Shown: positions 1 through 64,000 of the stretch, one piece after another
Position numbering within the stretch: position 1 is the stretch's first letter
Layout: the number at the start of each line of letters is the position of its first letter
Assembly: GCA_963924565.1 (NCBI GenBank)
Contig: OZ004613.1
Coordinates: 9,672,001 to 9,736,000, forward strand
Reading direction: 5' to 3'
Length of the DNA: 64,000 bases
Origin: Ascidiella aspersa
Taxonomy: Eukaryota
The notes under the pieces: generated by a model
Seen by the model: the letters and a program-made list of their open reading frames with translations, nothing else
Told to the model about the DNA's origin: nothing
The model's database searches: none
Translations under genes and position numbers: made by a program

Positions 1-2473
1 GTTCTTCTACATAAGTTGTAAGTGTGAAGTAAGTTTTAATTCGTGTGTTAATTGTTAGGCTTTTTTTATAAGTGTGTTAATCGTTAGGCGTTGCTTGAGC
101 TTGATAAGGCCAGCTATACTACAGCCAACTGGGGTTTTAGGTTGACAAAATTTCGGTTTAGCCACATTTTCTTAAAATATGTATAAAAATATCCCATGCT
201 ATACTCAAACGCTGTAAAATGTTATCAATGCGAAAACTAACTTTGTTAAGACTAAATTAGTCTTAACATCTGCTCTGTCTAGCGTGTGTATTCATTCGTA
301 TATTTGAAAGGTAAATCGAAAAACAGTTCCTATCATATGTGTGCCGTTATCGTTGATAAGTACGAGTTCTGAAGGACCAGATCGCAGTCGTTCACACTTG
401 TGTATAAATGTTTCAGTGTAGATCGACGAACTACTAGTTAATGCCTATAAGATAGACTGCTTGAAAACTACCAACACAGGCCTATAGCGCATAAAATGCG
501 TAACGAATTTAATCCTTAAATACAACATAGCGTGCAACCAACCTCTGATTCCTACGCAAGTGTATAGGAGGGGACTAATGCGGCGCACAGGGATTGGATC
601 CTGGGAATTATACGCCGTTAACCGCGAATTATACACCAAAAGGGCCCATATAACTGTCACGCCGACACTCGAATGACGTCAGTTGCCACCTGAGCGTCGT
701 TTAAAAATACGCGCCTAAAGGTAGAGGTTTGTTACGTCACACAGGGATCAACAGATAAGCGCCAGCCGACGGACGGACAAAGCTGAGAAAACGGTTTGCG
801 TATGTGTCAACTTGTCAATGTGGTTTTCCAGGTGGTTGCTGTGAAAGCCTATCTACAGATTTTTGTTGGTGGATTAGAATCTAACCTAAGCTTTAGAGTC
901 CAGCTTTGCTTCGGGATTTCACATGTCGTGATTTAAAACTTCAAGTAAAACCTGAAAATTGGGCTTTCCGATTTTTTTCGGATTTGTCTAGTTTCCGAAG
1001 CAAACGTGTTTTATGGAGTACGTAAGAGTATTTCACCATGAATAGAAGTTTTCCTGATGTTATTTCATGGGAAAATTGTTCCGTTCTATAGGTTAAACCG
1101 TAAATTATGCTTTTTTAGTTCTCTAACTATGCTTTTTTAACACATTTTTCGTTTTTGAACAACTTTTTTTATCCAAGATTTAACCCAAGCAAATATTGTG
1201 ATATTGTTTTATAATACACAACGCGAAATTCCCAATTTATCGCCAAATAATAATTAAATTCTCAAAAACTTTGAGCAACATATTAGTTCACTTGAGAATA
1301 GACAACCCGCCCACAAAAATTAATTTATTTCAACACTATATCTCAAGGGCTGCACGACTTGCACGTGTCCTTCTCAACCAGCTAATCGATTTAGGTAAAA
1401 CACTCAATTAAACCCCGATGTTTCTCGCGCCCCATTGCCTGTGAACATGCAGCTCGGCCTTTAAGACAAAGGATTCGAAGCGGACAACCAGCTGTGCCGT
1501 TTAGCAGCAATCAAAAAAACAGTACATCGCTATAGTGTCTAGCTGCTCGACTGGAAAACTGCCCGACGGTGCGCATAATGCCCCGTAATCCACATAGATC
1601 GCTCCCTAAGGAGGTAAGGGAACAGGAAAGGGTAATTGCATGGCTACATGATGACGTGGTTGCGTGATTGACGAGATTTCCAGAGCAATCGATAGGAACT
1701 TGTCCATCTTTAGGAAAGTTTGACCGACAAACGGTTATCGCGAAGTTAAGTTGCCGGGAACCTAGGGGATATCATTTGACTTAGTTTTTCAATTTACGTG
1801 TCGTATTTCGGTAGTCGTTATTCTGTTTTTAATGGGTTACCGTCGTTCTGTAATAATTTATTTCGTAGGCTGCTTCGTTTTGAATTTTTGCGCAAATCGC
1901 CGGAAAGTGAAACCCATACTGTAAGGTACATGGTTTATGTCCAGACAATTAGGGCCTGATTAAAATAGAAAATAGTTTTCTGCGCAAATAAAGAAATATT
2001 TTGTGCTCTTAAATTTAAAGCGATTTATCCAACGTGAAATCTGGTGTCGCCATGTTCAGTTTATAGCTTTGTGCGATCGAGTTTGAAGCTCAAAGCTCGA
2101 AATATAAGTCCAAGATGAGTTGTTTGGCGTCCAACTTACACCAGTTGCCACCTCAGTTGCCTGTTGTAAATAGTAGTCGATCAATATTTAAGATCGTCCG
2201 CGCTCTGTTTGGCTAAAATGGCGTCTTGGCGCGAAAAAGCAATACACTTAGGCAGCTTCCGTTCGGCTACTAATCCCTTTGAAGAAACAACAATCATCTA
2301 CCTTGTACAAATACGCGCAACTCCATAAATTAATTATTCGTATAACCAAGGAGGCGCAAACGTTTTATTAACAGCAAGGAATGTCGGACGCAGGCCGAAT
2401 GGGACTGAAAATAACAGGCCAGATATAAAACTTTTGTCAAATTTCATTGACTTATTTATTAAGTGAAAATAAT

Positions 2474-9080: not shown

Positions 9081-9981
9081 GGACGTTTTGTTTAGAAGGA
9101 AAATATATTTCGCAAAGTGGCATCGTCAGTTCCTTATTCAAACGGCTTGGACTGTACGCTATACTCGACCTTTAACGTACATACGCGCCGACGCACGACG
9201 AAACGGAAATTTGACACCCCGTCGCGCATTCGATTGATCAATGAGCCCGTGGCGATTTTCCGCAGTGAGCAAGAAACGAAGCAAAAAATCCCCGATCGCC
9301 CCGTGTCCGTAGTATTACCGCATCGCCGCCCGCACCCCCTCCCCCCTATGCTTCTTTCGCAACGAGAGAACGGTTTCCTGCCTTTTGCGCGGCAATCTTT
9401 TGGCGAAAACAAGATAAACCCTGTCGCCACCAAACCGCGATAAACGCAAGCGAGCGGGGTTCGCCTGTGTTGTATTACTGGAAAATTTCTTACGTCGTGA
9501 TGGCTGTTTTAGTTTATTGAGTGAGTTTGATAAAATCTGGTCTAGATTGTTCTATCATTACCTGTTAGTCGTGCCTTACAGAGATGTACGATACGGCCTG
9601 GTTAAACATGCGTAAAAGAGACCATCTCCAAGGAAAGTGCTCCTGTTGGTAACTCCCCCAAAAATTTTGACGTTAATTTTAATTGTGGCTTTTATTTGAG
9701 CTGCCATCTAAGCATAACTGTACCATCTTAAAGTTATTTTTTCAAGCCCAATTAATTCTTAAAAAAATACACGTTTTTTTCAAGTATACACTACTTTTAA
9801 GTACTGCACAATACCCATACCATGTCTAAGATTTTCGGTTACTTAAACATTCCCAAGTCTTAGTTTGTGTTGGGTTTCGTATTCTGAACAACTAGACAAA
9901 AACAGTTAAATTGCTTTTGTGTCTGAGGTGATCGTTTCCGTGCTTACTTGTCAAGTGTTTAAATTACTTTTTTCGTTCCAG

Positions 9982-10105
9982 AAAACGGCCGCCGACTGCC
10001 ACGGAAAGCGCTACTGCGGGCTGCTGGTTCACCACAGGGTGTTCGGGGACGACCCCTGTCCCGGAACCACCAAGTACCTGACCGTCAACTACAAATGCAG
10101 ATTGA
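9982..10105 (+). CDS. EVA1C: EVA1C-like exon: C-terminal half of SUEL domain 1
   Basis: ttccag|AAA...TTG A|gtgagt; FGDDPCPGTTKYL motif. Confidence 0.93.
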
Positions 10106-13100
10106 GTGAGTGCAGTTTGATCGGTTCGGATTTCACCTTTGCTTATTTTATTTGCGTGAAAACGTTATGACATTACTTAAGCTTACTATAAATCGAAATT
10201 AAATTTCGTCGAGAAATAAGTTAGAAGACGTTTGTCACCAGTATTTGCTGCCTATTATCTCTATATATTTTTAATGTAACCTATAGTTAAATTTAGGTTT
10301 AACCAATGGTTCCGTAAGCTTTGTGACACTATTGCCAAGTAAAATCCAGGTCTGGTTTCGGCTTACTACATTCCAACATACTTCATTCAGTAATTGTCAC
10401 TTGAAATATAAAAAAAGTGTCATTAGTCTAAATGAAAATTTAACTGGCCGTCGTCAGATCTCCAATCAAACTTTGATATAAAATAACTTTGCATTGAAGA
10501 ACTTGATGCAGTAGCGGAGTGCGACGCCCTTGGAAAATTAAAACCACACAAGGGCAATAACGTTTAAATTAAACCTTTTGGCGTTATTAAACAATTATTT
10601 TGATCAGCAAAATACTCTCAAAGGACGTCGCTACGCGCAGTTTAAGGACCTCTTCCGTAGCGTGAAAGCAAAGTTTGCAAATATGTTTAACGTTTTCTCT
10701 CAACGTTTCTTCCTTAAATTTAGCATTTAAACACGTAAAAAATGCCTAATTCCTAAGTGTACATCTCTTTATTATTTTGTCGTAACACCCCGCAAACCTC
10801 GCGTTTTTCTGCTTAGTGCCGGACGAGTTCAAGAAGCGAGACACTTGCGACGAGAAGACCATGGTGGTGCGCTGCGCACGCGCAAAGTACGTAATCGCCG
10901 TTTACAACGTCACAATGACGCATCGCGACGACTGCGGCAACTTCAGCGCGGCAAGTAAGTCTCGGAAAATTGTTATCTGGATTATGTTGGTCCAAACTTG
11001 ACTGCACAATGTTAAAATACTAAAAGAAGTTTTATAATAGGGTTCCGGTTATAATCATGACGTCACACCTACTTTTGCCCAAAACAGTAATCCTACTTTT
11101 GTTATAATTTTTTGGGCGGAGCTATTTTTGGGGGGTGGAATTCTTTTTCAATATTTTTTGTGGTGTTTTTAGGCCACTTTTAATAGATTAATAACAAAAA
11201 TTAGGAACAATCTTTGTGCCCTGTTTTCTGTTAAGGACTTTTGACTTAAAATTCAGTTTAGCAGCAATCTACCATTCTGATTTACAATTATCAAGCACGC
11301 GATGTTTCCAGACCGTGTGTCGTGTTTTAAAATTTAGGGTGGTCGGCTTTGGCAAGTCTTCCACAGTAGCCTTTTACCAACACGATGACCGTTGTTCGAT
11401 ATCTATATGCGGAAAACTTCGCTTGTAAAACACGGCGCGCTACACACATTCGCACTTCTGTGTCCGGCCTTTATCAACAAATCGAGGCTGCGGACTCTAT
11501 AAAACAAACAACCGTTCGGCGCCAATATCAAACCAAACGCGGTCTTTGGCAGCAGCCTACTTACCAGTTTCAACACGTTGCTTCCTGTTTTTTTACCAGT
11601 TAAACGGCATTTCCTAAATCTTGGGTAACTATGATTCATGACTGGATTATGCAACTGCCGGTTTAGAATTTCGATAGTATACACGACCGATTTTTCACTG
11701 AACATATGTGATTGGCCATTGCAAGGTGCGAAGATAAAACATGCGCGATGCATGGCTAATTTTCCCACTTGAAAGGGTTTTAAGGTTTATTTTGTGACAA
11801 AAATGTTAAACTCAATTTTGACGAGGTAAAATGAAACTCAAATTGACAAAGAACTACTGAGTTTTTGGTACGGTTAAAGCCTTAGTTTTCAGGGTAGAAA
11901 AAGTAATTGCTAATTAAGCAATAGATCAGTTCAAATAACACCCCAAAAGAAGTTTACTTTTTCTTTGTCAACCAAGTTCTAAGCCCCGTTTTAAACGCAC
12001 TGGCAACGAACAATTTAAAGGTAATACGAAAGCGCCCTTAAGCACAATAAACTAGTTTTCGGCTTCCGGGAAACCGGTACCAGATACAGGGCCGTGACAG
12101 CATTCCGTACACAACCATCCTCTCTGGTTTGCCAACGATAAGAAACCCACCAACCGCGAGGAGAAAATCCCCTTTCGAGATCTTTCTTTTCGCTAGGGGC
12201 GGGCTGGAGCTGTTGATTGAATCAGCAGAAAAAGGTGCAAATTTTGAGCGTTTATGTTAAAGTGAACAGCATTAGTTTTAAACCACGTTATTGCAAAGAA
12301 CTTTGTTGGAAGCGGGATTAGGCGAAGATACCGCAGTAACAGCAATGCTATTTCCTTATAGACCCTCACTAACACGGTGCTATACTGTTGTGGTATACAT
12401 TAAATAGATGTGAGAATGGCATTTGTAGGTCGTATGACTGCTGCCTGATTGTCGCTAAATTAATAAAAAAAACAATAAATGTACAATGTTTAAATCGTCT
12501 ATGTTTTTTTGTGCAGAATGCATATTATGCGATGTTGATAAGGCTCGTCATCTCTTTAAATGCTTAAATCATTCATGACAGTGAGTTTGGAAAAACACAA
12601 GTAACCCAAATATTTATCACGAGGATTTGTTACTACTTAGGAACTTTACGCACGGCAAAGCGCAAAACCGACCCTTAAACTACCTGTAAATTGTCCGTTA
12701 CTTTCTGAGCGTATATGGCTAATCTCTAAAGCTTCTGAGTCTATCAATCACGTGAGCATCCAACGAGAAAATTACTACAACTCGGAATAGATTTAAGGAA
12801 AGACATGTAACTCTCTTCTAAACCCCGGCTCAAACATGGGGCGCGTTAAACCTTTTTCGTAAATTTTTGTGGGGGATTTTTTCCGTCCGAAGTTACTTAA
12901 CGCAAATTCACAAAGTGATGCATTTGTTGATAAATGGTTTTGACCTGTCTGTGTGGCTTATTCTCATCCCCACTAAGAACTGTTAGGTCTGTTTGACCGT
13001 CACTGGGATAATATAACAGTGTGTCGAATGTTCTTTACTCACTTATCAATATTTTTACTCACCTATCAATATATTTTTTGCAAGAGTGTATTTACGTTTA

Positions 13101-16100
13101 AAGTTTCTCACGATTGGCATCCAACAAACATCTACGGCAAAAAACTATGAATGTCTTTAGTTTAATAAACCCGGGATCTGGGCTTGTCCCATTTCGTTAC
13201 CAAATGTCGTATTTTTGACTTGTTTGTGTGGCTTATTGTCATACCCACGAAGCACTGTAGAGTCTGCCTGACAGTCGTTGGGCTAATATACCATTATTTG
13301 TGGAATATTTTTGACTGATTTATCAATATTAGGCTAAAAACTCGAAAAAAAATAGTGAGCCTTACAGACTACGGTCTTTAGTCTTCAGGTTTAAATTTCC
13401 TGCAAATGGCGCCCGACATGATTTTGGTGGAAAATTCTTAATGTATAATTCTTAATAAACCCGGTATCTGGGCTTGTCCCATTTCCCGTACCTTTTTGCG
13501 TTGCGTCACGGGCCACCCACTCACCCAGCAAATCGCGCGCACACGCACAAAGCCCACCAATGTTGCGAAAAATTCAAACCAAAACAATCGGTAAGCCGCG
13601 TGACGATTCGAGCATTCAAAGCGGCACGCCAGCCACGTTCGGGATTATTGCAAGAACAACCTTAACGCCTTTCTCCATGCTTTGAGCTGTTTAATGAAAA
13701 AACGGTATAGTATATGACTTGGGTTTTATAATGCCTTTTGTCCTATAATGCTTTGGATTTATTGGCTTTCACCTTTTTCCGTGGCATGTATATGGACAAA
13801 ATAAAATTGACAAAAATATTTTTTCAAATTAATGTAATACCGTTTAGCCAGTTGCTTCCTAACTATGGCTTTAAATGACACCCTCTGAAAAATATGAATA
13901 AATTTCTGTACCTTGCTAGATTAATTGCTAAACGGCATACTCTAATGTCACAATAAATCAAATTAAAACAACACACAACAACTGTGCGCAATGTATTGAA
14001 AAGTACTTTTTAAATGAAATTATTCTACCCGTATAATCGTACACCAAATATTCGTATCGAGAGCGAAATTTAGAATATCTTCGCACACCCGAACATTATA
14101 AACAACCATGAGAACTGCTGAGGTAAGGCTTTACGGGTATTCTTTTGGGTGAAACAATCTTTCTCATCTTGCCCTATCAACCGGGACTTGACCTTTTCGT
14201 AAAGTCAGAGGTGCGCGTGAGGGAATTGCGGTTGAGATTCGAGGACCCTTATTGCAGCCAAGTGCTTACTCGTGCCTTATCTATGGACCAAGGGTCAAAT
14301 CGTTAAAATGGGTGCCACCCGTCAAGCCATCGAATAGCCTCTTATACGCCTGGAGATAAAGGGTTTGAAGTCCCTTGTAATCTATACACACTCGAAGATG
14401 TAGTTCAGTATAGTTCATTCAGTGGCGGACAGAATTCGTGTTGTTTACCACCGAATCGGTACAACGACTATGTAACTTGTGGAGAACTCGAATTGCAAGC
14501 GAACAATGGTTCTGGGTTTTGCGGGCGCCATTGTAGCGATTTACTGGGGCGGGGGTCGGTGTTAGATTTACAGGCCGATCACGAACTGTCGTCATGTGTA
14601 AAGGTTTGGAGACTTTGACCTCCAGCTGAACCTTTCATAACTTGAAAAATCGCTGGAAAACGGATGAACATCTTGTAAAAACGCCGTTTTTAGGCTGTGC
14701 AGATTTTACGATATGTTTTAAAACACAACACCGTAAAGAACTCAATGTATATTTTTCCAGAAGAAAAAAACAAGGAAATTAGATTGGTTTGAGGCTTTAG
14801 TTAAACGAAGTAAATACCAAATCCCGTTTTAAAGTAGGTTTAACCACGTTGAAAATGAATAATGAGATATTCAAAACGTTCAAATTGCTATACCTTTACA
14901 TCTATATGAGCTTTGAGATTTTAACTTGTTTGGGTATATACGCAGTGACGTTTGACAAAATCATTCATTGTTTTTCTCCAGGAATGTTGCCCTTAAAACC
15001 ACAGGGCGAAAATAAAGAAGGCCCGGTTATTTCTACCCCGCCTTATGTCGAATTACAAACTGGGAGCAGCGTTACCATCCCTATGCCTTCATTGTGCCCT
15101 TCGGATAAATAATAACATATTTATTGCCCCCCACCCCATCCCCTTAAAAAAATCTTGTGATACAAATTATTCGTGGCTCCTTTTCTACCCATTACAAAAA
15201 GGTTTGCGTTTCAAATTGCGGCATAAGTTTACAAGCGCCGCTAATGAACAATCAAATATTTGTTTCGCAAAGCGCTTGACCGCAAAGTCAAGTGACGTTT
15301 TACCCGTTGTTTGGGATCTATGCAAAATGTAACGCTATAATACAACACAGCATTACGATAGTCTTTCATGATACGTCAGCATGTTAGATACAATATTACG
15401 AAATGAGCATTCTACGCTATCAGTTATCACTGTTTTCAAATCGCTTGATTTGGATTGCCTAACTTTATAAGTGGGCCAAGGCGACGATTAAGCAGAGAAC
15501 AACAGAACACTGCTGGACATTCAGGACCTATTTAGACTAGTCTTTAAAAGAGCCCTGTCCACTTGCAGAGAAATTCATTCATTTTATCATTGTTAGTGTC
15601 GATAAGTTATTCCGATTTCTGGACCGATTTCCGATTTCTAAACTGACATTCGGCACGGATTCGGCGTAGATACAACTGTAAAAAACAAAACGCCACAAAC
15701 AAACAATTTAACTGGATTTCAGATTGCTCCGCCACACTACCAAACAACATAAATTACGGAGTGACGACCAAGTTAACTCTATTCTTTCCCACAGATTGCT
15801 CGTTGAGCTCCAGCTCGGCGCTGGACAAGGTGACCAAGCTCTGCCACAAGAGGCAGCGTTGCGCAGTGAGTTTGGGCCAGAACTCTTGCGCCAACTTTAT
15901 GCACCTCGATTACGCCTGCAGTAAGTAGAATGCTCGTCTGTATTCTTGCGCTTGTAGGTGCAAAAGCGATGCAAATCGAATTGAAATATGGTGTTTAAGA
16001 GACAAATTGGTATTCGTACCCGGTTGCGAGCGGATAAAATTGTAATTAAGTGAGAGAAAATGTTTTTCGTACAACGAATTCTGTATTCGCAGGTTTTAAG

Positions 16101-40100: not shown

Positions 40101-43100
40101 CGAAATGCGACTCCCGTGTCGGTCAAAGATCGCACGTTAGATGGGCCGGTGCGATCGCGCCACTGTCAACAGTTGCATACGCAGATCGCAAAAATCTCGT
40201 GAGACACGAGCTTTGATGGGATGTTTGAGAAATGTGAGACCCGTGTGTTTGGAATTTAGTTTTGTGTTCGTGAATTTTGAGGCACTTGGAAAACCAAATT
40301 TTTCCTCGAATTTTCTGCTTGTTGCCGATTTTTGCTCGTTGGTCAGTTATCGCAATGTTTAACAGAACAAGTGTAGAATTCCATTTGAAAACTGAAAATT
40401 AGGGAAATGAAATTGTACACATGTTGGCTCATGAAAAAAAGCCTAGATTTCTTGGCGGTTGCGAATCTAGGGAAACTTAAAAACATAGTGAAAACATAAA
40501 ATATAAAATAAAAAAACAGGTGAAAAAAAGGAGGAAAATAAATTCGTTGGCCTTTCTTCCCAATGTATAAAAACTGAAAAAAGGTTTTGAACTTTTCACA
40601 GGAGTGAACGTTTATGACACCAATATGGGATTTGCTTATAAATCAAAATCAAATAAATTTTGAAAAAAATATCATTAAATGTATCGAAATCAAAACCGCA
40701 CAAACGCGAATACCTTCCCTGGTGGACGACGTCGCGCCTCTTCTTCGTCGACTACGTACTCGTTCCCCTTCGTCGGCGGACACGCCTTTGCCACGCCCCC
40801 TTTGCCTCCACCACACTCAACCTCCGCTCGCTCCTCAGCTTCCGCAGTCGATCCTGCGGAGGACCTCGAGAAGAGGCGGGCTCCTCTTGAGATGCTCTCG
40901 TAGAGGTGATCCGAGGCTCGGGCGATCCGGCTCGCGACGCTAAGATGGTTGGGATTAGATCCTCCGGAAGAACCACCGCTCATGGCCGCCTCTTTGATCT
41001 TCATCCGTCTTCTTTTGGCTTCCTCCTCTGTCTCTTTGTAGCCGCTCCTGGTACCGGATGCCGCTTCCAGCTCGAAGACCGACTCCTCTGCCGAAGAGAG
41101 GTGGCGTTAGTAGGAGAAGTGCGATTTATAGGGGATTTTTTAGCTTTTTTATGGTTGTTACTTTGCTATGGAAATTAAATACCAATTTCACGCTTGAACA
41201 CTTACACAAACATTAGTTAACACAACTTTAGTTTGTCTAACTCAATTCTCACAGAATAGATTTGAAAACATCAATGGCCAAGAATATCTTTGTCACTTGT
41301 GTCAAAGCTTCCCGCTTCATGAATTACACTACTTTTAGTTCAGCAAAAAATTACATAAAAAAATGTACATTAAGTTACGATATCATATGATCACCGAAGA
41401 GTTCCTATCCCAGAACGCTACCTTTAACAACAAGTACTTGTGAACAAGTCTAAAATAATAACTTTAGCAAAGGGCTGAAGGCATCTTAAGATTTACTGTT
41501 ACGTCTCACGGCTTATCGAATCGTGAGAGCTCACTGAATTAGACCAAAGTTTTTTTTTTTTTTGTAACGTTCTAACATTGGGTAATTACTGAAAAGGTTG
41601 TATCGAGCTCTTTGAATCTTGACAAGCAACATTCATAGAGTCAACTAATTGATATTTAAAGGAAGTGGTCAAAAATTACGATCAGAGCCCATTTTTTGTC
41701 GAAAAAGGCAATCAAATCTAAGCACCCTTAATACCAACGCCACATACCCAATATGACGAGTGCGCTTAATGCCAGCCACCTTCGACCCGAAAACGCAAAA
41801 TACATAAAACAAAAATCGAAATACTTACCTGCTATGCTCGATAACTGTCATTTGTGTCAGCGATTTTAAAGTACTCACCAGCTATGCTCTTCAGTTCCAC
41901 CGCCTGGAACATGTTATCGGACGCCGCTCGATTCTTCTTCTTTCTTCTCCTGCGCCGGTTGCTCCTCCTGTGCCAGTAGATGCAGAAACAGATGATGGTG
42001 ATGAGGAGCACCAAGACAAAGAGAAGAGCGATAAGCCAGGTCTGCCAATCGGAGCTCGAGCTCGGCTCCGGAAGACCTTGAGATTGAGAGGATTTAAAAG
42101 CGTTTGCTCAATGTTTTTAACTTGAACGAAGTAAAGTGTATCTTCTACGAAAGAAAGTGTATCTCCTACAAAGTAAAGTGCGAGGTTTCGATTGTTGGAC
42201 ATTCACTAATAAGTCTAATAGTGGCAGAAAAAATGATCAAGAACATACAGCTAAAATTTTAACCTCCTTTGTTTCACAGTAATGTAAAATTCCTGCTATG
42301 ATGGACTTAACGTATACTGCAACATGCCGAAATTTAACTTTTTTCTTCTTTCAAAAGTTAGGCACGGATTATCAACTGAAATATCAAAACGTTTGTAAAG
42401 TGACTTGTGACTTGACAAGTTAGTTACGACAATCTGCTTACCTAACGTCCGGCACTGCTTTTCCATTCTGACTACATTCTTGCAATCGGTCGACGGAAGG
42501 TGGATGCCACACCACTGCTCTCTGTACCGAACCTAATAGATAAAATAAAACAAATCATCATTAGTGAAACCGATCTGCCCCTTTTCAGGCTTAAAGCGTC
42601 AAGTCGAACGCCTTTGCGTGTCCAAAGGCGTATATACCACTTGAACTTTTTATCTCAGGTTTTCAGTGGCTATTTTATGTGGAAACGGGTTTGAACAGCG
42701 TCGTATTGAATCGTGGTGCTTATTATAACGCAATGCCTCATAGCCTGGTATTTTTTGCCAGTTATTTGACCGTGTATCGTTGACGTTGATAAAAAAAAAA
42801 AAAAAGGTGTAACTTGTCTTCAGTCCTCACCTATATACTTGTTTCTGCGTATAGCATGAATGGTGTGCCTTCAAAACCTTATCGCCCCGAAATCCTCAGA
42901 GTTGAACCTTTACCTGTTTGTCGGCTTCGTCTTGCTCGGTTTTCCAGCCACCCCACTCCTTCCAGTCGAGAAACGCCAAGCATGAAGGTGACTTTCCGGG
43001 AAGAATGCAAGAAACAGCAGTTTTCTCGGTGGTGTAGTTGCAGTCCACTACTAGATCAGCGGTACTGCCAACACAAGGACCTTTTCCAGTCAAGTATGAA

Positions 43101-46100
43101 ACATTGAGCTTCGATAAGACCTCTACAGCTCCAAGTTAAGCTTCGAGTCGTTTGAATTCTGGGACTGGTTTATTTATTTATTTCTGGGACTGGTTTATTT
43201 ATTTATTTATGGGACTGTTTTTCTGGGATTTTCGCACTGGTTTATTCAGGTTAAAAGGGTATATACGCAAGTTAATATATCTCGAAGAACTAAAACGGTG
43301 AAAAGCCGCTAATTGCACTGCTTAGGACTTAGATGTTACCTAAAGGAAGTCTCGTAAATATTTTTGTGATTTAACAGTGGAAGGAAACAATTCTTTCAGG
43401 TAATTTTTAGCGAAACCGCTAGTTGTTGTATCGCCGTGAAGGCGACCTCTTTAACGCGACCTCTGTGACAAAGTCGGCGCCATCGTTTACACAAAACTTG
43501 ACTTTCACTCGCGGTCAGTTGATTAACTAGAGGAGATGCTTCAGGCCTTTGACGTGACGCTAGGACATATGGTCGCCGATCGGTTTTGTTTGTTTTGAAG
43601 ATACTCAGCCGATAAGGCCGTCTCGTTTGAGGTATCTCCTGGCGGTTTAATGTACGCCCTCCCAAAGATTAAATGCAGATATTAATTCAGAAATGGCATC
43701 TGGCTGCTGACAGTTTTTATTAACAACGAGATAATGCAAACGCCGCTCAAAATTCGACAGAAGGCTGCTTTATATATATATCCTCGAATTCGGTTTTATT
43801 TCCGTTTGTGGCGCGCAGAAGGCGAAGATAAACAACGTACTTACGTATTGCAAACATCGGGTTGCATCGCAGATCGGCATCCGTCGATCAATCTACCTTG
43901 AGCCATGGCCTGACGGGCTTCGGAACACTGCGCCAGGCACGACAAGGGCACGTTGTTGGTCGGCTTCCGCTGCGCCACATTCTTTTTCCTGTCGGCGATC
44001 AATATCGAGATGAAAGCGCTTATTGTATCGTGATCAAAGCGGTGGAAACTACAGGCTTTTGACAGACTGTCCAGTGTCCAGCTTTTCATAATTGCCGCCG
44101 TACGTTTTTTTTTGCTCATGACAAAATAAAGCTAAAACTGGCCAACACTTGCAAAGCAACCGTGTGTTATGTCGTTTTTTGGATTGTAAATAGAAATGGC
44201 TTCACTTGATAAAGTGTAAAGCAATCACAAAACTAACCCTGGATTATTAAATGCACTTGTCTTGTCCGCACTATAATCGGGTCTGAAATTGGGCCTGGAG
44301 TCAACAATGGAGTACGGCAACGCAGACCTCAATGTTAATTAGCGAATGCCAAGCTTTTACCCAATCTTTGGAGTTAAAGAACTGCCTTATAATCAATAAT
44401 TTTAGCCCAGTATATCAAAGCAATGTTTTGGTTTATAGTTTATATTTCCTTGCAGTTTTTAGTTTATATTTCCTACGGGTTGCCCTATATAAACCTTGAC
44501 TTATACCCGATGCCTTCGGAAAGGCTAACTGAAATGAGTAGGCCTAATCAGGATTATCGTGTTAGCAAAGCCAGAAGCCAGGATAGAAACAACTACCCTG
44601 AGGTAAGGTTCCAACTCGCCACCTCCGGCCAAGCCGGGACCTAAGTTGACTCTGTATACGGTATAGTGTTTTAGTAGTAAACACACGCAGCATTTTCGTT
44701 AAAAGTTTTTCAGCATTGCAACAATAAGCACGTCCATTGCGCTTTTGCCTGTAAAACAGCATCCGCTCTGGGGCATAGTGGTTGGCTGGTGGTAGAAAGA
44801 CGTAGTAAGAATCTTAAATCCCATACAGAAGTTAGTAGCATTTTGAACGTTAAGAGTATCTCTTTTTTTATTCATTTTCAACATAGATTAAGAGATAATT
44901 AAAAACGAAGAGATATTCGAAACGTTCAAAATGCTACCAACTTATGTATGGGCTTCAATATTCTTAAACTACGTCTTACTACAATCTCCATTCCTCCAAC
45001 TATGATGCTTCAGAGCGGCTTTGATATTCTTACATCATCCGCTTATGCTTTTGGTATTTTTACTCCCACTCATCTTACAATGATTCTTTTGTGGTCGTTG
45101 TAACAGTGGTGGTTGTCGAAGTTTTCGTGCTGGTAGTGCTTGATTCCACGATGCATCCTGGACACTTGGCACTCTCGTATTGCAGATGGAGTCCCTTGCC
45201 GCCTACGCAGTTGATACTCGGGTGGTCGGGCTGCGACCCGCCGTAACACCTGCGCACGAGTACGAGTTAAAATGCGAGTACGGAGTATCAGAACGAGTTT
45301 GGCTATGGGCATTGTGTTTAAATTTAGTTATCGTACGGATACGGGTCCACGATAGTGCATAGTGTAAAAAGGGAAACGATAACTTTTCCGGTTTATGGAA
45401 AGTTTTGAAGATCTTTCTTCATTAGTTCGGACTTGATTTTAGATTTCGTGCATTTGCAAAGTTTTAAAGTTATTCTGTGAAACTGTTATAGCCTATACTG
45501 GCGGCTTTATGTGTTTTTCTAGCACTGGTTTGTTTCTTCTTTGAATTATACGGAGAAAGTGCAACCTTCTATCCACCGAAAAAAGCTAGAACACAGCACG
45601 AATGATACTCAGTCAAAATAACGATCGCGTATGCAAATGTTCTGCCTCTCTCCCACAACGAAACCAAATTCAATTTCGGATCCACTTTAAACGTTACAGC
45701 ACAAAAGATATACAAGAACTCACCCCCTCTCTCGTTTTCGGTAGCAGGTCGCGTTACAGGCGCCATACGCACCCCACGAACCCCAGTTACCATCGCACTC
45801 GCAGAAGCTGGTCTGCGTCACCTTGCAGTCGTTCAGTGTGCTGCAATACCGAGACACCTGACAAAAGAAGACGTTTTATTAGTGATTTGATAAGTGTTGC
45901 ACGCCACGAGCGATTTGCGTATATCTCACCACGTAAAACAACTGCGACAACAGGGGGAATCCAGGATTTAGGTCTGGGGGCAGGCGATTTTTTAGAATGA
46001 CGTCACAAAGTACGCCACACACTCTTTTTTAATTTAGTGCAATAAATGTACGGATCAGGTGTTATCATTACAGTTTGACGTTTTAGTTATTTTTGGTCGG

Positions 46101-49100
46101 TATCTTGTAAGCTGCTTTGACTGGTTCTAGCTTGAGGGCCAACTGACTGGAAAACTATTTTGTGTTTTCATTGGTCTGTTTGCTGCTGTGTGAGCGTTTA
46201 GTTAGACAAATAAACGGTTATCACAATATATCTTTCCAGTCAATTCGCATATACATTACAACAAGTTACAATAGCCACATTTGTAAAATAGGAAGTCAAA
46301 TCCAAGATTCCAATATTTATCTTCTGGTATCGGAACCTTCACATAGCATTGTATAAGTGAATATATATATTTTGAATTTTCGTGAGGGACAACTAAAAGT
46401 AATTTTTGTTCCTGTCAAATCGTTTTGTCCAAATTTGACAAAGTCGTTGGTGTAAAGACGATTCTTTGATGCAAATGGCTAAGCTTAGGTTATGACTATT
46501 TGCCCAGCTCTATATTAATGGCATACGTTTTAATTATTACTGCCTTACTCATGGTAATTTAAACACATGTTACATTAAACAAATGAAACGAAAACATGCA
46601 GTTCTTCGAAAAATCGGTTCTCACAAATTTCACGGATGACGTATTCCTGTCGCTTCGATGACGCGTTTTGGCGCTTCATCAAGCTCTAACACAAATCGAC
46701 AAACGCTTTTACATAATTTAACGAGGTTGTCATTCTTCCTGTTGCTGCATATCCTCTAACGCGAGCTGACCCATTGCGTAATCGTTTAGATTTAAACAGC
46801 TCTCACAACTCTTGATATTCGAGTTTTCGGATCCGCGTGGGACAAAATAATCGAAAAACAAAACGTAAAATCGGTCACGTGGTTTGTTGTGACACGTGCC
46901 CTGAAGAAATTCCCCGTTATATATTTACTCTAGACATGCTTGCAACTTATAAACAAACAATTTTTTTGAAAACGCATTGTCAAAAAACAGCTAAATATTT
47001 GATAGGTGTTTAGGCTGTTAAATAATAAAAAAACAGGTAAAAATATGAATTTCTTATTATAAACAGAAACATACATTTCGCCATATAAACCCAGGCGTTT
47101 GTCAGTTGACATATGTATTTTATTTGTAGCTTGAATCTTTTTTTTCAGCTTTTTTACGTTTAAAGGGGTTTCAGTTAAATCTAATGGGATAATTTTTTCA
47201 AAAGGCCAAAATGTGGATAATGGGTTATTATCGTCATCAATGATTCAGCAGTTTATATCGATATACATCATTGGTCAATTACCCAGTGTTATTTCAAGTT
47301 CACGGTCGTCAGCGTGCTGACCTAACCCTGCAATTTCAAACGATTACGAAATTTCCACTCTTAACGAGGGGAAATCTAAACCGCTTTTGGCAATTTTAAG
47401 CTTTTCGGCGATGGTCTAGAATACTACCACATTTTCATATGGGGGTTACTATTACTAACACTATTTAAATTGCGAGTTAGCGTTTGGGTTCGGGTGGGTC
47501 AAGTATTATCGTTAATTTATTTTCCCATAGTGCTAAAATCTTGGTTTTCCGTTAATGTTGACTTTCAACTGATATTTGTTCGGTATCGTTCACGACGTAA
47601 TAATGGGAGCCATGGATAGCAGTCAAATAAACCTGAGTATATGAGTTCCAACATCAGGTTTTCGACTCCCCTTTTTTGGGATGACAATGTTAACACTTTT
47701 TGAAATCGGACATGTAGCCTAACTGTCTTTTGCTGTGGAATTCTGTGTAAATTTGAATTCATAGCAACCTACTTCGTGTTTGCTTGAATCAGTGATCAAT
47801 CCGTTCATTAGTTTTGTAAACAATTTAAAGTTTATATGAAGTTCAAAAATACGGGGTAGATTACTAACATTAATAAACTTATTTGATTCTTATTTAAGAT
47901 CAATTTTTATGTACATTTAAGGGAAATAAGTAAATTTACCAGAAATATTTTGATTAAAAACATACTAAAGCCAATAAGTCAATGCATTTGCCTAGATACC
48001 CAAAGACTAAACTCTTTTGCCTATAAGTGACTTAGCGTCAAGTTAAGTAATGTTATCCCAACTAGTTATGTCTATCAATTTTAAAAATACTTCACACTGC
48101 CGTTTTGCAAGAATTTACAATAAAAACGCGTCGCATCACTGCGCAAAAAAATCGGGCGCTCCTTAATTGAGGAACAATCACCCCTAATGCTCAAGACACG
48201 TACCCCAACACCCCCCGTTCGCAAAACCTACCTTGGTCGACTTGCTTGTATCGCACGGAATAGGACAAGGTGTCCTGCTCGAAAGTTCCATCGTACCTCC
48301 AATGCAGAGATCGCCTACAGTTGGCGGACATTTGCTCACATTCTCAATTAAGACGCCGTTCTGGCAAAGCTTTGCGCCGCAGTACCTTCACGACAAAGGA
48401 ATGTGGAATCTTTTCAGCCGCTAAACGAATAGTTTATTGGTCGGTAGCTTGGCGACTAGAGCCTTAGATCGACAGTCGAAAAAGTTTCATTTACCAAACA
48501 AACCGCCGTGATAGACAAACGATTGTTTGGTTGCACGTCCGGTCATTAAGATCCAAGCCAAGTGCAAAACTTAAAGACCGAAATCAACTTGTGGTAGGAA
48601 TATAAATTCCTATAATGAACGTTTCGAATAACTCTTTATTGATTTGATCGTTGAAAATGAATAAATAAATATTCTAAACGTTCGAAATGCTACCTACTTC
48701 GGTATGGGGTTTGATATTCTTACTACAACCTCCAACCATTATATTCCGAAATGAATTTGGTTAGACTTTAACGATAAACATATTTTAATTTTAATTGTTT
48801 TATCCAGTGTTTTCATTATAAAGATTGAATTAAGCATTTGGTTTGTGTATTATTAGCTTACACCCTGATTAATATTGTGTTATTTTTTTAGATACTGATA
48901 ATGCGTTTAGGAGTGAAATAAGTTTATCATATAGCATCCAAACAAACTGATTTCAGCTTTTCCAAGCTCTGTGTTTAGTTTAATATTTATCATTAATCTG
49001 CAACCAGAATCGTTTGTTTTTTCACCATTCGGATTCAGGCAAGCTCTGTTATCCAAAAGTAAAATCCCGATTATTAGTGTTTTTCACTGCGTGGCCTTTA

Positions 49101-52100
49101 TTCTGTTTTGCGGAGTTGAAGCAGCAAAAACGCCCGGTTACCTGAACCTAGTGTAGGAGCACTGGCTGGTGCACTGCGGGTCCTGTCGATTATAAATCCT
49201 CCATTCGCCTTGGTCCTGGCCTAGAGCGGTGTCCAGGATCAAAAGAAGCAACGCTAGACGGACAAATTCCATCGCGCCCCTGTTCCCTCTTCGTCACGTG
49301 ACGGCTGCTCGTTCAATGCAAAGCCGCCACTCGCTCGAGTTGTTGTAGTCAAACGATGCAGACGCGTATTAAGGTATACGCGTTTGTAAACAGAGGCTTT
49401 TGGGTTCAGTTTTAGGCAGTTTTAGTGCTAGGAACCTGAAACGGATCCAGTTTTATAGATATCCTCGACTATTGCAACAAAACGATAACTTAAACTACTA
49501 AAATTCGTTTTTAACGACAAAAGAGTCTTGAATATTACCCATAGCCAAAAATAATGTAATGATTTCTTTAATTTTACGCAATTTTTCCCTGAGCACATAG
49601 TCAAATTGCAATTGACGTTTATACTTTCTCGGTTTCACCTCGGCTTGGCTGATTTACAATACAACGCTCACCTGTACTGCTCTATTGTCTACTAAAGCAA
49701 CCTCCACGCATCCTTAGGCTTTCGCTTTATACACGGCTCTCACCTGACGCGACCATCAATCAATCATCGGTCAACCCGCGCGAACTTTACCCTCTGAAGA
49801 CCCCACCTATAGGCCCCCGGATCACCCCTCAAAAACCCCTTTCACCTGCGTTAAATCATCCGTCTTGATTCAACTTTTCCCGAACGAAGCCGTATTTGAC
49901 GATCTGCTTTCAGATTCGCTTCGAAACGAGTTATCGCATTGACAACAAACAAATGCACTTTGCTTGTGTTGTGACTTGCGACAGCGCAAACACGCGTAAG
50001 CACCGCGCGCTGCTTAATTACGCGATTGTCCTTTCCTGGTGATGATGCGACGCTCTCATTTCCGCCCAGCGTTGCAAACCTCTGCCCTATCGCTGTCTTT
50101 CTATCTGCTTATGTACAACACTATATAGCTGGTGCATAGGTGCATGGCTCTTTGTGTGTTGTGTTGTAACGGTGTTAGCCAGTTGTGCTCGGTGCGCCGA
50201 CGCGATGACGGTGATTCAGCGCAACTGTTTCGTCACAAAGCTGATCGCCCGAACCACATCCGGTCGCTCTCTGGCGCAACCGGCGGCGAACATGCGCCCG
50301 CCTTCACTGACAACGTTCAACGTGCCGTAGCAGGCGCTTAGCAAGTCCGCAGTATGTAATCATTCATAACTAGATATTGTTTTCACTCGTTCAACAACAC
50401 ACTATCCAAAACGTTTGATGAAATTTTCTGATAAATACAACGAATCTCTCAATTCAAATTTACCGCTTTAAGTTCTCCGCGCAAATCACGTATTTACCTT
50501 CTTTTACGGGAACATCAATTTCTATACATAGGCGTTTATGAAATTTTCTCTCTTTTCAACAAAGATTCGGTTTGTTACGTATGGCCAAAACACGTCACTG
50601 GTCGTTGACTAGAAAGTTTGAAAGTTTATTTTTCGAGGTAAAGCGACCTGCTTTACGTAACAGTTAACATGTAAAACAAGTTGTATAGACCTAATGGTTA
50701 GATGTTGTAGTAGGACGACGTAGCAAGAAAATCCAAGCCCATATACAGAAGTAGGTAGCATTTTGAACATTTCGAATATATCTTTATTCATTTTTAACAT
50801 GTAATGTTGAGTTATTTAAAACGTTTCTGTATATGGGCTTTTATATTCTTGCGAAGTTGTATATAGACTTTCCTGTTTCACTGTTGGCTTACCCCTGGCT
50901 TGACTATGCCTTGACTTCCGCTTTCTAAACGACGAGCTTGTTGCTGTTGTTGCTGTTGATGTTTATTGAGGTTCAGGCCAGGCTAAATTGTCGTGACGCG
51001 CGCAACCTCCGACGTGTTTGCTACACGCGAAGACCCTGTTGGCCTGCCCTCAGTGGAATCAAGGTCGAAGAGTGAAAAATGAACGCACACAGGTTGATGA
51101 CGAGCAGTAATAGAAAATACGCTCATAAGGAACACGTGCGAACGCCAAATACGGAGATTGGCAGGCGCAGTCATTTCTTACTCAACAACGGCGTTGTTTG
51201 GCCGTCATGATTCTTAACCCCCGGGGAATTTTGCTTTAAAGTTCTTTAAAAGAAAATAGAGGACCAAAATCTTGCCTATAGAAATTCATTGTATTCACTG
51301 TATACTTTCTGAAACACATATATAGGTAGTTTCAAAAAAACATTTTCATTCGCACTGTTGATTTAAAAACGTGAATACAACATTTTAATACTTGCACAAA
51401 GTTGTATTAAACCTACACTTTACTGCAAGCTGTATTACCCGTAGCGTATAGCGCATAAAAATACTTAAAAAGTGTAAAAGAACATTTATTTATCATTTTA
51501 AATACAAAATCTAATCAAACAAATTCGTTTTGCAGACGCCGCAGCTAACGACAAATCTACCAAAAACCCGGCGCCCAGGCCAAGCAAGCGGCCTCCGCGA
51601 AAGCGCAAAACAACGACGTCGCCCTTCACGCCCAGCAGCATCACAATCATCAACCACTTCGCCAAGTCGGTCGCACCGCCCGTCGCTTCGCCCGCGGGAA
51701 ATCGGAGCCTGAATCCCCGCCGAATGGACTCGACTACCCCGGGGTCGTTCGACGTGGGTGCTTCGGCTGCGACCGCAATCGCCGAGACGCCGAACGGCGA
51801 CGCCGACAACGCGACCGTTCTCTTTCCGGTCCTGCGCAGTTTCATGGCGATCTCGTCGTACATAACTGGTAGGTTTTGTTTCGTCAACTCTAGGGAGAAT
51901 ATTTTGGCGATTAGGGGATTTGCGATAATATCGGTTCGGAGCCGACACCCGATGCCAAGCGGTAGAATCGGAATACTCGTCCGATTCTAACGTAGTATCG
52001 GTGCCGATCCGACATCAAATTAACTTCTGAATAAAAGCCATGTCTTGCGATCCAATCTAGAGTTTTCTACCTTAGACAAATTTAGAATATAGCTCGAACC

Positions 52101-53732
52101 TAACAACAAAAATATTTTTTCTGGGCATTAGGTTTAACACAGTGTTTCTTAAAGTTATTTTATTTTATAAGCTCAAACACTTTTTTTCCTTCCTTTGAAA
52201 ACCACTGTTCAACACAAACAAACGCAAATGTATTTTAAATCGTCAACCCGGCTAGTGTTGGAAATCGTAAAACATTTCAAGCCACAAAAATTCCTCTCCC
52301 GATCCTAACCTCCTCTTCCTTTACTCTTCCAGCCAACAGCGATCGCGTCCTCGTCGTCTTCCTGGGATGCGTGTGTCTCGGTCTCTTCCTCACAGTCTGC
52401 ATGCTGGTGTGCAAGATCGAGGAGCGCAAGCTCTGCTCCGTCTTCACTGGAAGAAAGAAGGGGAACGGGTCCTCCGGGAAGAGCGCCTCGCAGGAGGACG
52501 AGTTGGCCAGCAACCGCACCGGCAACGAGACGACAGAGAGCCTCCTGAACCGCCAGTCGCACACCGGCTCTTCGGGGACAACACCCGCCAACCACAACCT
52601 CTTCGGGGCGCCGGGGAGCGGATCGGCGGGAACTGATGGCTCGAATTCCCGCGGAAACCCGGTCGACTTTATGAGGCACCTCGGCGCCGGGCAGAAGGGC
52701 AAGCAGCGGCGGCGGAGGCGAAACAGTCGCGTGCGCAAGCTCATGAACAAGTGGTGCACTTGCTGCTGCACCAACGCGCCCTGGCAACGCGAGCAGCGCT
52801 CCGACATAGACGACGACGACTACAACATTGCGCACCGCTCCACGTCGTTAAGCGACGACGACGTTCACAGCGGCGGCCTTGGCAGCGGGGGAAGGGGCTT
52901 CGAATCGCCGCCTCACGCGGTTTTCGCGTCGGCGTCGAGTCCCGATCGTTCGGTTGGCGGGGAGGAAGCGACGGTCGAGTCGGAGACGCGCTACAGCGCC
53001 TTTCCAACCGGATCGCTCAACGACGGCCTGCGCTTTGGCACCGACGACGGCAACACCAGCGAGTATGAGTACCAGGACAACGACGTCACGCCGCCCGCCG
53101 TTACCGAAACTTCGCCGGCGGTCCGTCCCACCACTCTGCATCCCAACTTCCACAAGTACTCTCCCGCAGCAGCAGCCGCTGTACAGACTAGCACGTTCGG
53201 TGGCACGCAGCTGAGCGGCATCAACCGCAACCCGTACATGCGCCAGCACATGCCCACTGTGCCGCGCCAGGGCTACAACCAACAGCAGCAGCAGCGTGCC
53301 TTAACGCAGCAGCCGCCGGTGCACCGCGAGCCGCCGCCCTTCCCAAAGACGTCGGCGTACGGCTACCAGCCGCGCACGCTACCCCACTTTGCCACACAAC
53401 AGCGCGTGCCGCTTACGAACCCTTACATGCAACAGCAGCAGAGGCAAGGCCACTTCGCCTACAACCAGCACCATACGCAGCAGCGCCACCCGGCGTCGTT
53501 CGCTCCCACTTTCAACGAACACTATGTGTCGCTGCAGCCCCAGCTTCGGCCTGGCGCCGGCGCTTCGCGGACTATGGGTTTAGGACCAGCCGAAGGCCGC
53601 TTAGAACGCCGTGACTCGTTCTACGACAACTCGTTGCCGCGGGACAGCCCCTTGTACGAGTACTACCAGCGCCAGGGCCAGGGCAGGCAGGAACTGCCCG
53701 GCACCAAGAACATCAATCAGTACTTCCAGTAA
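9982..53732 (+). CDS. EVA1C: EVA-1/EVA1C-like type I membrane protein (2 SUEL/Gal-lectin domains, S/T-rich stalk, TM, long tail). 5' exons lie upstream of the window. Exons: 9982-10105, 10817-10954, 15795-15920, 32891-33040, 33724-33879, 51536-51868, 52333-53732 (808 aa in window)
   Basis: All junctions are AG/GT and phase-consistent. KTAADCHGKRYCGLLVHHRVFGDDPCPGTTKYLTVNYKC is a SUEL C-terminal half; YAC|IPRRILT resembles EVA1C YACVPKNILT; SYIT|ANSDRVLVVFLGCVCLGLFLTVCMLV resembles the EVA1 TM signature AYIRAHPERAALLFVSSVCIGL (recalled, not aligned). Confidence 0.88.
10817..10954 (+). CDS. EVA1C: EVA1C-like exon: N-terminal half of SUEL domain 2
   Basis: cttag|TG CCG...GCA A|gtaagt; PDEFKKRDTCDEKTMVVRC. 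Confidence 0.9.
12938..13486. repeat. Diverged tandem duplication, 2 units of ~270 bp
   Basis: Both units run ttttgac.tgt.tgtgtggcttatt.tcat.cccac ... taataaacccgg.atctgggcttgtcccatttc. Confidence 0.8.
15795..15920 (+). CDS. EVA1C: EVA1C-like exon: C-terminal half of SUEL domain 2
   Basis: cccacag|AT TGC...TGC A|gtaagt; CSLSSSSALDKVTKLCHKRQRC...HLDYAC. Confidence 0.9.
27586..27836. repeat. Diverged tandem duplication, 2 units of ~138 bp
   Basis: cggcgc..ttttgacc.tgtcttga...gggaaaatt...ccgcttttt...ttttaccaa.ttt..gtgttt occurs twice. Confidence 0.7.
32620..32860. repeat. Family B foldback copy
   Basis: gaagtaggtaacattttgaacgtttcgaatatc ... tacctacttctgtatgggcttcgatattcttactac. Confidence 0.7.
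32891..33040 (+). CDS. EVA1C: EVA1C-like exon: start of stalk
   Basis: gcgcag|TT CCT...GAA A|gtaagc; IPRRILTD then S/T-rich sequence. Confidence 0.85.
33140..33277. repeat. Family B foldback copy
   Basis: gtagtaagaatatcaaagcc ... gtatgggctttgatattcttacta. Confidence 0.7.
33724..33879 (+). CDS. EVA1C: EVA1C-like exon: Thr-rich mucin-like stalk
   Basis: catag|TT CGC...AAA G|gttggt; PPTPSTTLLTSSTTTATTTTTPTT; phase 1-1. Confidence 0.75.
35524..49272 (-). CDS. Nested antisense gene: uncharacterised single-pass type I membrane protein with TSP1-like Cys-rich ectodomain (~943 aa). Exons in transcript order: 49272-49142, 48385-48232, 45857-45724, 45249-45079, 43988(or 44048)-43845, 43289-43267 (tentative microexon), 43122-42914, 42532-42442, 42076-41879, 41087-40714, 39951-39838, 38363-38249, 37043-36714, 36167-35524
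   Basis: Signal peptide MEFVRLALLLLILDTALG; TSP1 signature CDGNWGSWGAYGACNATCYRKRERGC; second W-box DWKEWGGW...RYREQWC; TM WLIALLFVLVLLITIICFCIYW followed by RRSNRRRRRKKK. Canonical GT-AG junctions with consistent phases; the 45079 to 43122 connection is the least certain part. Confidence 0.85.
37945..38200. repeat. Dispersed repeat family C, two inverted copies
   Basis: aaaggtcgagtaga...catcttgattaagacgtttc and its reverse complement; same block at ~18090-18216 and ~57540-57625. Confidence 0.7.
39584..39657 (-). pseudogene. tRNA-derived element (tRNA pseudogene or SINE head)
   Basis: Minus strand GCCTGTGTAGCTCAGTTGGCGGAGC...GTGAGTTCGAACCC: A box and B box present and the D stem pairs, but acceptor and T stems are broken; T6 tract just downstream. 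Confidence 0.7.
43158..43246. repeat. Short tandem repeat (tctgggactggtttatttattta)n
   Basis: About four to five progressively degenerate units visible. Confidence 0.75.
44763..45018. mobile_element. Foldback/palindromic MITE family B (most complete copy)
   Basis: ccgctctg...gtagtaagaat...catacagaag...cattttgaacgt mirrored by acgttcaaaatg...gtatgggc...attctt...actac...cagagcgg. Other arms/copies at ~14848-14930, 20575-20622, 28085-28195, 32620-32860, 33140-33277, 37135-37270, 48590-48750, 50695-50852. Confidence 0.8.
51536..51868 (+). CDS. EVA1C: EVA1C-like exon: membrane-proximal stalk
   Basis: tttgcag|AC GCC...ACT G|gtaggt; ends VLRSFMAISSYIT. Confidence 0.85.
51911..52030 (+). mobile_element. 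MITE family A partial copy
   Basis: taggggatttgcgataatatcggttcggagccga...gatgccaag...tactcgtccgat...gtatcggtgccgatccga. Confidence 0.65.
52333..53732 (+). CDS. EVA1C: EVA1C-like last exon: TM helix and cytoplasmic tail
   Basis: cttccag|CC AAC AGC; in frame with the 453-aa ORF 52371-53732; TAA stop. Confidence 0.92.
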
Positions 53733-63940: not shown

Positions 63941-64000
63941 CTGAAGGTGGCCAAAACAAATTTTATAAACTTGAGTATCATTTTTTTAGATATATCAGCA

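What the first reader, a model, noticed from the sequence alone, without database searches (positions are those of the whole stretch)
500..53000. Quasi-periodic (~0.7-1 kb) array of CpG-rich islands through the EVA1C introns
By eye, GC/CpG-rich blocks of ~200-400 bp alternate with AT-rich spacers at fairly regular intervals. Approximate centres (kb): 0.7, 1.5, 2.3, 3.1, 4.15, 4.9, 5.9, 6.65, 7.5, 8.3, 9.3, 10.0, 10.85, 11.5, 12.15, 13.6, 14.3, 15.1, 15.85, 16.5, 17.35, 17.9, 18.85, 19.8, 20.9, 22.2, 22.85, 23.6, 24.55, 25.45, 26.1, 26.9, 27.5, 28.5, 29.3, 30.5, 31.2, 31.95, 32.95 and onward. The islands are not copies of each other and most are non-coding. Exons of both genes fall on island positions, while MITEs sit mostly in the AT-rich spacers. 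Inference: a chromatin-imposed lattice of about 4-5 nucleosomes acting through mutation, repair or insertion bias. The ordinary alternative is dense enhancers separated by TE-filled gaps.
Basis: partly seen in the sequence, partly recalled or inferred. Interest (0 to 1): 0.7.

Follow-up and report, generated by a model that had tools for sequence, protein, structure and literature searches.

The report
Tightly packed polarised GC-rich intron elements
A large sea-squirt gene carries about 80 short GC-rich blocks roughly 0.9 kb apart, each with mirror-image base bias on its two flanks; they are likely regulatory elements packed so densely that they look evenly spaced, not a fixed nucleosome grid.

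Summary
GC content in window 500-52,200 has a spectral peak near 900 bp that beats shuffled and memoryless two-state nulls (0 of 1000) and survives masking of repeats and exons. It spans an ascidian EVA1C-like gene and about 8 kb upstream of its first coding exon (about -26 to +52 kb, 81 islands). It is not a lattice. There is no second autocorrelation peak, shuffling whole island-plus-gap units reproduces the peak, spacings are not multiples of 140-260 bp, and other loci show periods of 0.6-1.4 kb. Island cores show fewer differences from a second haplotype (5 in 756 bp against 58 in 2,730 bp; small sample, core width chosen afterwards). Best reading: a saturated cluster of constrained, probably cis-regulatory elements, each with a footprint of about 600 bp, like ascidian COREs. 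Two things remain unexplained. The gaps are somewhat more regular than memoryless packing gives. Islands are also polarised: the strand read outward from the centre is G- and T-rich (46 of 59 islands; 27 of 32 in fresh loci). No chromatin data were available.

The parts
1..52200 (.). Quasi-periodic GC-island domain (window part; continues about 26 kb upstream, G000:C7 from about 9,646,000). About 10 islands per 10 kb; fitted core about 190-250 bp at 53% GC, flanks about 155-185 bp at 41%, gap about 250-350 bp at 33%
18700..19024 (.). Example non-coding island: single-copy depth, no listed difference from run X2, while the next gap (19025-19524) has 11
9981..10105 (+). EVA1C-like exon, SUEL lectin domain; spliced to 10817 in a contig of run X3
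10817..10954 (+). EVA1C-like exon
15797..15920 (+). EVA1C-like exon, weak SUEL lectin match
32891..33880 (+). Two probable Thr-rich stalk exons (about 32891-33040 and 33722-33880); read from the sequence, not confirmed by RNA
51540..51870 (+). Probable EVA1C-like exon before the membrane segment (limits approximate)
52335..53732 (+). Last coding exon of the EVA1C-like gene (FAM176, membrane segment and tail); the periodic domain ends here
35524..49270 (-). Nested antisense gene: signal peptide, Cys/Trp-rich (TSP1-like, name recalled) exon, Thr-rich stalk, membrane segment, long tail; its exons make many of the islands at 35-49 kb
   Evidence: no Pfam hit for three tail exons
25583..25899 (.). 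High-copy inverted-repeat element in an AT-rich gap; others at 32607-32872, 37139-37274, 37938-38213, 44769-45015, 48598-48771, 50692-50850
58000..64000 (.). Contrast region outside the domain: CpG-depleted (o/e 0.40-0.46 in 58-60 and 62-64 kb), presumably methylated genes, around a CpG-rich single-exon FAM221 gene (60274-61077, minus strand)

Best explanation
The islands are likely constrained cis-regulatory elements (plus exons) of a large, probably unmethylated EVA1C-like gene, packed so densely that a footprint of about 600 bp each yields the short-range 0.9-kb spacing that the sequence shows. Shown: the spacing has short-range order only; gaps have ordinary genome composition; most of the spectral peak is reproduced by bell-shaped islands with memoryless gaps; islands are unique and polarised. 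Inferred: protein binding and selection hold the cores GC-rich against an AT-biased background, free DNA and small transposons collect in the gaps, and the outward G+T skew records divergent transcription (or another strand-specific process) starting at each island.
For: Unit shuffling reproduces band power (72% of 500 shuffles reach it) and no global lattice fits. A model of bell-shaped islands with memoryless gaps gives band power 4.16 against 4.83 observed and spacing CV 0.36 against 0.34. Unique gap DNA is 34.7% GC, like repeats in gaps at 33.5%. Island density is 10.2 per 10 kb here and 4.2-7.7 in 14 other regions; a 600-650 bp hard core predicts CV 0.34-0.39 here (seen 0.28, 0.39) and 0.68-0.75 at 4-5 per 10 kb. 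Differences from run X2: 5 in 756 core bases, 58 in 2,730 others (p 0.003; 0.034 after merging clustered changes); 1 of 20 listed indels in cores, which are 27% of that DNA. The domain matches the gene's extent: exons from -17.8 to +53.7 kb. In Ciona and Phallusia open regions are short, GC-richer than other DNA, conserved and clustered (10.1101/371005, passages). Outward G+T excess has the sign known for non-template and leading strands (PMC10030826, passages).
Against: No ATAC, MNase, methylation or cross-species data were available, so regulatory function is untested. The polymorphism test covers only 3,486 bp; with the first island definition it gave p 0.07, a circular-shift test 0.19 and contig-level fits 0.19-0.51, and core width was chosen afterwards; low mutation rate would look the same. 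The memoryless-gap model falls short on trough (0.8% of 400 runs) and first peak (0.5%), and gaps of characteristic length fit better by about 11 log-likelihood units, uncalibrated. A reshuffle using finer segments did not reach the first peak (0 of 1000). Density and regularity are not significantly correlated over 16 regions (rho -0.40, p 0.12). No shared motif marks most islands: TGACGTCA is in 6 of 64. The skew also appears outward from exon edges (0.085 +/- 0.031, 17 exons), which enhancer transcription does not explain.
Confidence: 0.58

Rival explanations
1. Self-written footprint: each island is a germline-active site (divergent transcription start, replication start or bound barrier) whose strand-specific mutation, repair or GC-biased conversion builds the GC peak and the skew, and which suppresses a neighbour within about 600 bp. 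Short-range order without a lattice; most islands need not be enhancers.
For: G-C skew oscillates nearly in quadrature with GC at 714-1000 bp (coherence 0.39-0.51, phase about -110 degrees). GC gradient and G-C skew correlate at -0.41 here and negatively in all 16 regions; Markov-mosaic and random-centre controls are about 0. DNA 60-450 bp from exon edges is 36.1% GC against 40.8 +/- 1.0% for random placement (0 of 1000). Gaps holding a repeat are, net of it, shorter than gaps without (813 against 912 bp, p 0.03).
Against: GC falls sharply at exon edges (0.56 to 0.38 within 50 bp), which suits site-level selection better than a regional process. The gene-wide skew from transcription here is T over A only (0.04-0.05) with G-C near 0, unlike the island skew. 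In the window alone, repeats add almost their full length to the spacing (1071 against 871 bp for 220 bp).
Confidence: 0.22
2. Expansion by insertion: conserved blocks once lay closer, and every permissive gap grew by one to three small AT-rich transposons that have since decayed, giving gaps a characteristic length.
For: 34 of 80 intervals hold at least 60 bp of detectable repeat; repeats cover 14-19% of gap and 2% of island DNA. Gap and repeat GC are alike. Gap lengths fit a shape of 2-3 steps.
Against: More than 80% of gap DNA shows no repeat match even at relaxed thresholds (library about 1.4 Mb). Read depth marks only 3-4 high-copy spots in 8 kb. It does not explain the skew. It is compatible with the best explanation rather than exclusive.
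Confidence: 0.12
3. One reading: a fixed repeat of 4-5 nucleosomes imposes the period.
For: Both halves of the domain peak at 909 bp; CpG-undepleted, repeat-poor random segments show a bump at 830-1000 bp (4.48 +/- 0.92 against 1.96 +/- 0.36 at 1250-1670 bp, 17 segments). A-rich left and T-rich right matches half of the human nucleosome pattern (PMC2900294, passages).
Against: No phase memory, no quantisation, no edge ripple, no 10-bp AA/TT period; periods of 0.6-1.4 kb elsewhere; flanks of the five best random segments were not above random (p 0.27); the G/C half of the skew is opposite to the human nucleosome pattern. Caveat: centre positions uncertain by 50-100 bp could blur quantisation.
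Confidence: 0.08

Closest known systems
[quoted passage not shown]
   Same: Short GC-richer non-coding elements, at least 5 per 10 kb, around a signalling-type gene in an ascidian.
   Different: COREs are defined by ATAC peaks, not tested here. Here about 10 per 10 kb over 78 kb. The passages read do not mention regular spacing ('spacing' occurs 0 times in 10.1101/371005) or flank skew.
GC-rich conserved non-coding sequences of invertebrates (PMC5203776, passages read)
   Same: GC peak over an AT-richer background.
   Different: That study has no Ciona mention in its main text; cross-species conservation could not be tested here.
Nucleosome inhibitory energy barriers, NIEBs (PMC4966569 and PMC8228248 passages; PMC6028776 abstract and first part of main text)
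   Same: About 1-kb pattern of AT-rich barrier and GC-richer flanks.
   Different: NIEB spacings are multiples of about 153 bp with GC ripples; neither is seen here. NIEBs are genome-wide in vertebrates; this is strongest in one gene domain.
Vertebrate CpG islands
   Same: CpG-undepleted, GC-rich.
   Different: The whole domain is CpG-undepleted (o/e about 1.2), gaps included; Ciona is reported to lack CpG islands (PMC4691747, passages).

Membership tests
Ascidian CORE | At least 5 non-coding ATAC peaks within 10 kb | not testable with these tools
   No ATAC run listed; GC islands number 10.2 per 10 kb
Ascidian CORE | Elements short and GC-richer than other non-exonic DNA | tested here: met
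   51.8% against 34.7% GC; cores about 190-250 bp
Ascidian CORE | Sequence constraint | tested here: inconclusive
   Fewer differences in cores (p 0.003-0.034) but p 0.07-0.51 by other definitions; 3,486 bp only
Ascidian CORE | Lies at a regulatory or signalling gene | tested here: inconclusive
   EVA1C-like membrane lectin; its signalling role is recalled from vertebrates; no homeobox hit nearby
Ascidian CORE | Enhancer activity in reporter assays | not testable with these tools
   needs electroporation
NIEB / nucleosome lattice | Spacings quantised in nucleosome lengths | tested here: not met
   R at most 0.09 over 140-260 bp on the pooled spacings under 1.6 kb (270 pooled); at most 0.18 in the window's 54; centre error limits power
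NIEB / nucleosome lattice | GC ripple of 150-200 bp beside barriers | tested here: not met
   Flat 0.33-0.37 for about 300 bp into gaps, 536 edges
NIEB / nucleosome lattice | Long-range phase or fixed period | tested here: not met
NIEB / nucleosome lattice | Measured nucleosome depletion and ordering | not testable with these tools
   no MNase data
Vertebrate-type CpG island | CpG-rich against a CpG-depleted background | tested here: not met
   gap CpG o/e 1.0, island 1.27
Tandem or transposon-derived array | Islands related to each other or palindromic | tested here: not met

The most novel reading that the evidence does not exclude
Ascidian unmethylated domains self-organise into liquid-like arrays of polarised, bidirectional initiation sites that exclude each other within about 600 bp and write their own GC peak and outward G+T skew; the regulatory or origin map could then be read from raw sequence, and a minimum spacing between elements, exons included, would be a measurable rule.
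Probability: 0.2. Interest if true: 0.75.

Novelty: new variant of a known kind. Interest (0 to 1): 0.45.

Why it matters
If islands are regulatory elements, this locus shows the packing limit of a regulatory landscape (one element per 0.9 kb over 78 kb), and GC peak plus skew switch gives a sequence-only predictor of such elements in ascidians, whose non-coding DNA does not align across genera. The skew makes a testable question: which strand-specific process acts at each island. I found no paper on kilobase GC periodicity or flank skew in ascidians in the searches (open-access library only; supplements not read), which is weak evidence of absence.

Tried and rejected
Tandem repeat or duplicated unit: rejected. 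Old palindromic transposons as islands: own-arm scores not above mismatched arms (maximum 24, p 0.49; the control mean there is inflated by masked bases). Structured RNA: no Rfam hit at gathering thresholds. One shared motif or 10-bp AA/TT period: none. Universal 0.9-kb period: not replicated in flanks of the five best random segments. Cross-species conservation: run X4 (organism B) lay only in short, shallow pieces and gave no profile. Expression: no RNA holder listed; RNA run X6 was too thin at the islands to say anything. A recalled Ciona intron-length mode near 300 bp could not be confirmed and is not used. A recalled paper on skew at replication origins was not held and is not used. Earlier scan notes: none on this feature in this genome; one on another genome judged not periodic. 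Nine of 80 random segments were dropped as over 90% repeat before the genome comparison.

Full report
Setting. The window is G000:C7:9,672,001-9,736,000 of a 308.6-Mb genome. Its FAM221 protein has Ciona, Styela and Clavelina as best named relatives, so the host is an ascidian. The last large exon matches FAM176 and a Ciona protein with SUEL lectin and FAM176 domains. That protein maps to exons at -17.8, -11.3, -1.0, 10.0, 10.8, 15.8 and 52.3-53.7 kb; the 10105-10817 splice is seen in a contig of run X3. A second membrane-protein gene lies antisense at 35.5-49.3 kb.

The observation. GC and CpG spectra both peak at about 909 bp, with an autocorrelation trough at 350-450 bp and a peak at 850 bp. 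Band power is 5.06, against at most 0.80 in 300 shuffles and 3.55 in 1000 runs of a fitted memoryless two-state model. Band power is high from about -26 kb to +52 kb and lower in most of the 100-kb flanks; the whole domain has 81 peaks, mean spacing 962 bp, CV 0.34. Islands are unique. CpG o/e is 1.27 in islands and 1.0 in gaps, so this is a GC pattern in CpG-undepleted DNA, not a row of vertebrate-type CpG islands.

Not a lattice. The second autocorrelation peak is 0.02. Shuffling trough-to-trough units reaches the observed band power in 72% of 500 runs and the first peak in 3.6%; the best global lattice fit is reached by 55% of shuffled spacings. A reshuffle with finer segments, which splits real islands, did not reach the first peak in 1000 runs. 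Spacings show no multiple of 140-260 bp in the window or among 270 pooled spacings, and GC is flat for about 300 bp into the gaps over 536 edges; centre error of 50-100 bp weakens the first test. Vertebrate NIEB arrays show 153-bp steps and GC ripples (PMC4966569, PMC8228248, passages). Other loci peak anywhere from 0.6 to 1.4 kb.

Packing explains most of it. A graded model gives cores of about 190-250 bp at 53% GC, flanks of 155-185 bp at 41% and gaps of 250-350 bp at 33%. With memoryless gaps it yields band power 4.16 (observed 4.83; 5% of 400 runs reach it) and CV 0.36, but misses trough and first peak (0.8%, 0.5%); gaps of characteristic length fit all measures and gain about 11 log-likelihood units. 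Density here is 10.2 islands per 10 kb, against 4.2-7.7 in 14 other regions. A 600-650 bp hard core predicts the CVs seen at both densities, though the rank correlation over 16 regions is not significant (p 0.12). Of 71 random 10-kb segments kept from 80, 9 reach the window's mean band power, and CpG-undepleted, repeat-poor ones show a bump at 830-1000 bp. The 20 segments flanking five of the best were not above random (p 0.27). So the elements are widespread; an unbroken 78-kb run is the strongest among regions sampled, about 0.5% of the genome.

What the islands are. Detected repeats cover 3.5% of island and 13.1% of gap bases; unique gap DNA is 34.7% GC. At relaxed thresholds repeats reach 19% of gaps. 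Against contigs of run X2, 63 listed differences in 3,486 bp fall 5 in 756 core bases and 58 in 2,730 others (p 0.003; 0.034 when clustered changes are merged). The first island definition gave p 0.07, a shift test 0.19, contig-level fits 0.19 and 0.51; 1 of 20 listed indels is in a core (from, which list only the 40 best-supported rows each). This is suggestive only. TGACGTCA is enriched (8 against 0.2 expected) but in 6 of 64 islands and is also present in gaps. In Ciona and Phallusia, open regions are 119-219 bp, GC-richer, conserved within a genus and clustered; 73% of 49 tested drove expression (10.1101/371005, passages). Invertebrate conserved non-coding sequences are mostly GC-rich (PMC5203776, passages).

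An unexpected feature. On the plus strand the left flank of an island is C-rich and the right flank G- and T-rich. At 100-200 bp from the centre, right-minus-left G-C is +0.089 (z 6.8, 59 non-coding islands), with z 4.4 in 83 islands near homeobox genes and 5.6 in 175 from random loci, exons not removed. Outward G excess holds in 46 of 59 islands; random centres and a Markov mosaic give about 0. With codon-like islands filtered out it holds in 92 of 150 and in 27 of 32 from loci fetched afterwards; it was not seen in the 5 islands at 35-52 kb. G-C skew is coherent with GC at 714-1000 bp, nearly in quadrature. G+T excess is known on non-template and leading strands (PMC10030826, passages) and just downstream of Ciona trans-spliced starts, over about 20 bp (PMC4691747, passages). 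The human nucleosome pattern agrees for A/T and is opposite for G/C (PMC2900294, passages). Exons obey the same spacing: DNA 60-450 bp from exon edges is 36.1% GC against 40.8% expected (0 of 1000), and it shows a similar skew, partly perhaps from splice signals. Whether repeats lengthen gaps is mixed: nearly additive in the window, about half compensated over the whole domain.

Verdict. A real, short-range order; most likely a saturated CORE-like cluster of constrained elements (0.58). A self-written footprint of initiation or repair (0.22), gap growth by insertion (0.12) and a true lattice (0.08) are the rivals. Membership of COREs is not shown, since openness and activity could not be tested. 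Supplementary files of the papers were not read and may bear on peak spacing.

Noticed in passing
window 35524-49270, minus strand: Nested antisense gene in the last EVA1C-like introns: signal peptide, Cys/Trp-rich exon, Thr-rich stalk, membrane segment, long tail with no Pfam hit in three exons.
   Followed up: partly
EVA1C-like and nested gene exons: Third-position GC about 0.74-0.85 with adjacent intron at 0.34-0.38 and a sharp edge: strong codon-level GC bias.
   Followed up: partly
window 39539-39716: Repeat with a tRNA-like internal motif (SINE-like, by eye) that itself raises local GC to 49%.
   Followed up: no
window 60274-61077, minus strand: Single-exon FAM221 gene, CpG-rich, between CpG-depleted stretches; head to head with a short-intron gene starting near 61.4 kb.
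   Followed up: partly
window 56440-57170, minus strand: Exons of a small enzyme-like gene (BtpA-like by recall, not tested).
   Followed up: no
window 3805-3938, 5107-5253, 6330-6460, 51915-52073: Relatively GC-rich dispersed repeat family with several copies in the domain.
   Followed up: no
L063, L071, L077, L027 and five more random loci: 9 of 80 random 10-kb samples are almost wholly repeat, several satellite-like.
   Followed up: no
L051-L053 (G000:C4:7.70 Mb) and L054-L056 (C1:29.82 Mb): Homeobox neighbourhoods with similar but longer-period order (1.0-1.25 kb) and the same skew.
   Followed up: partly
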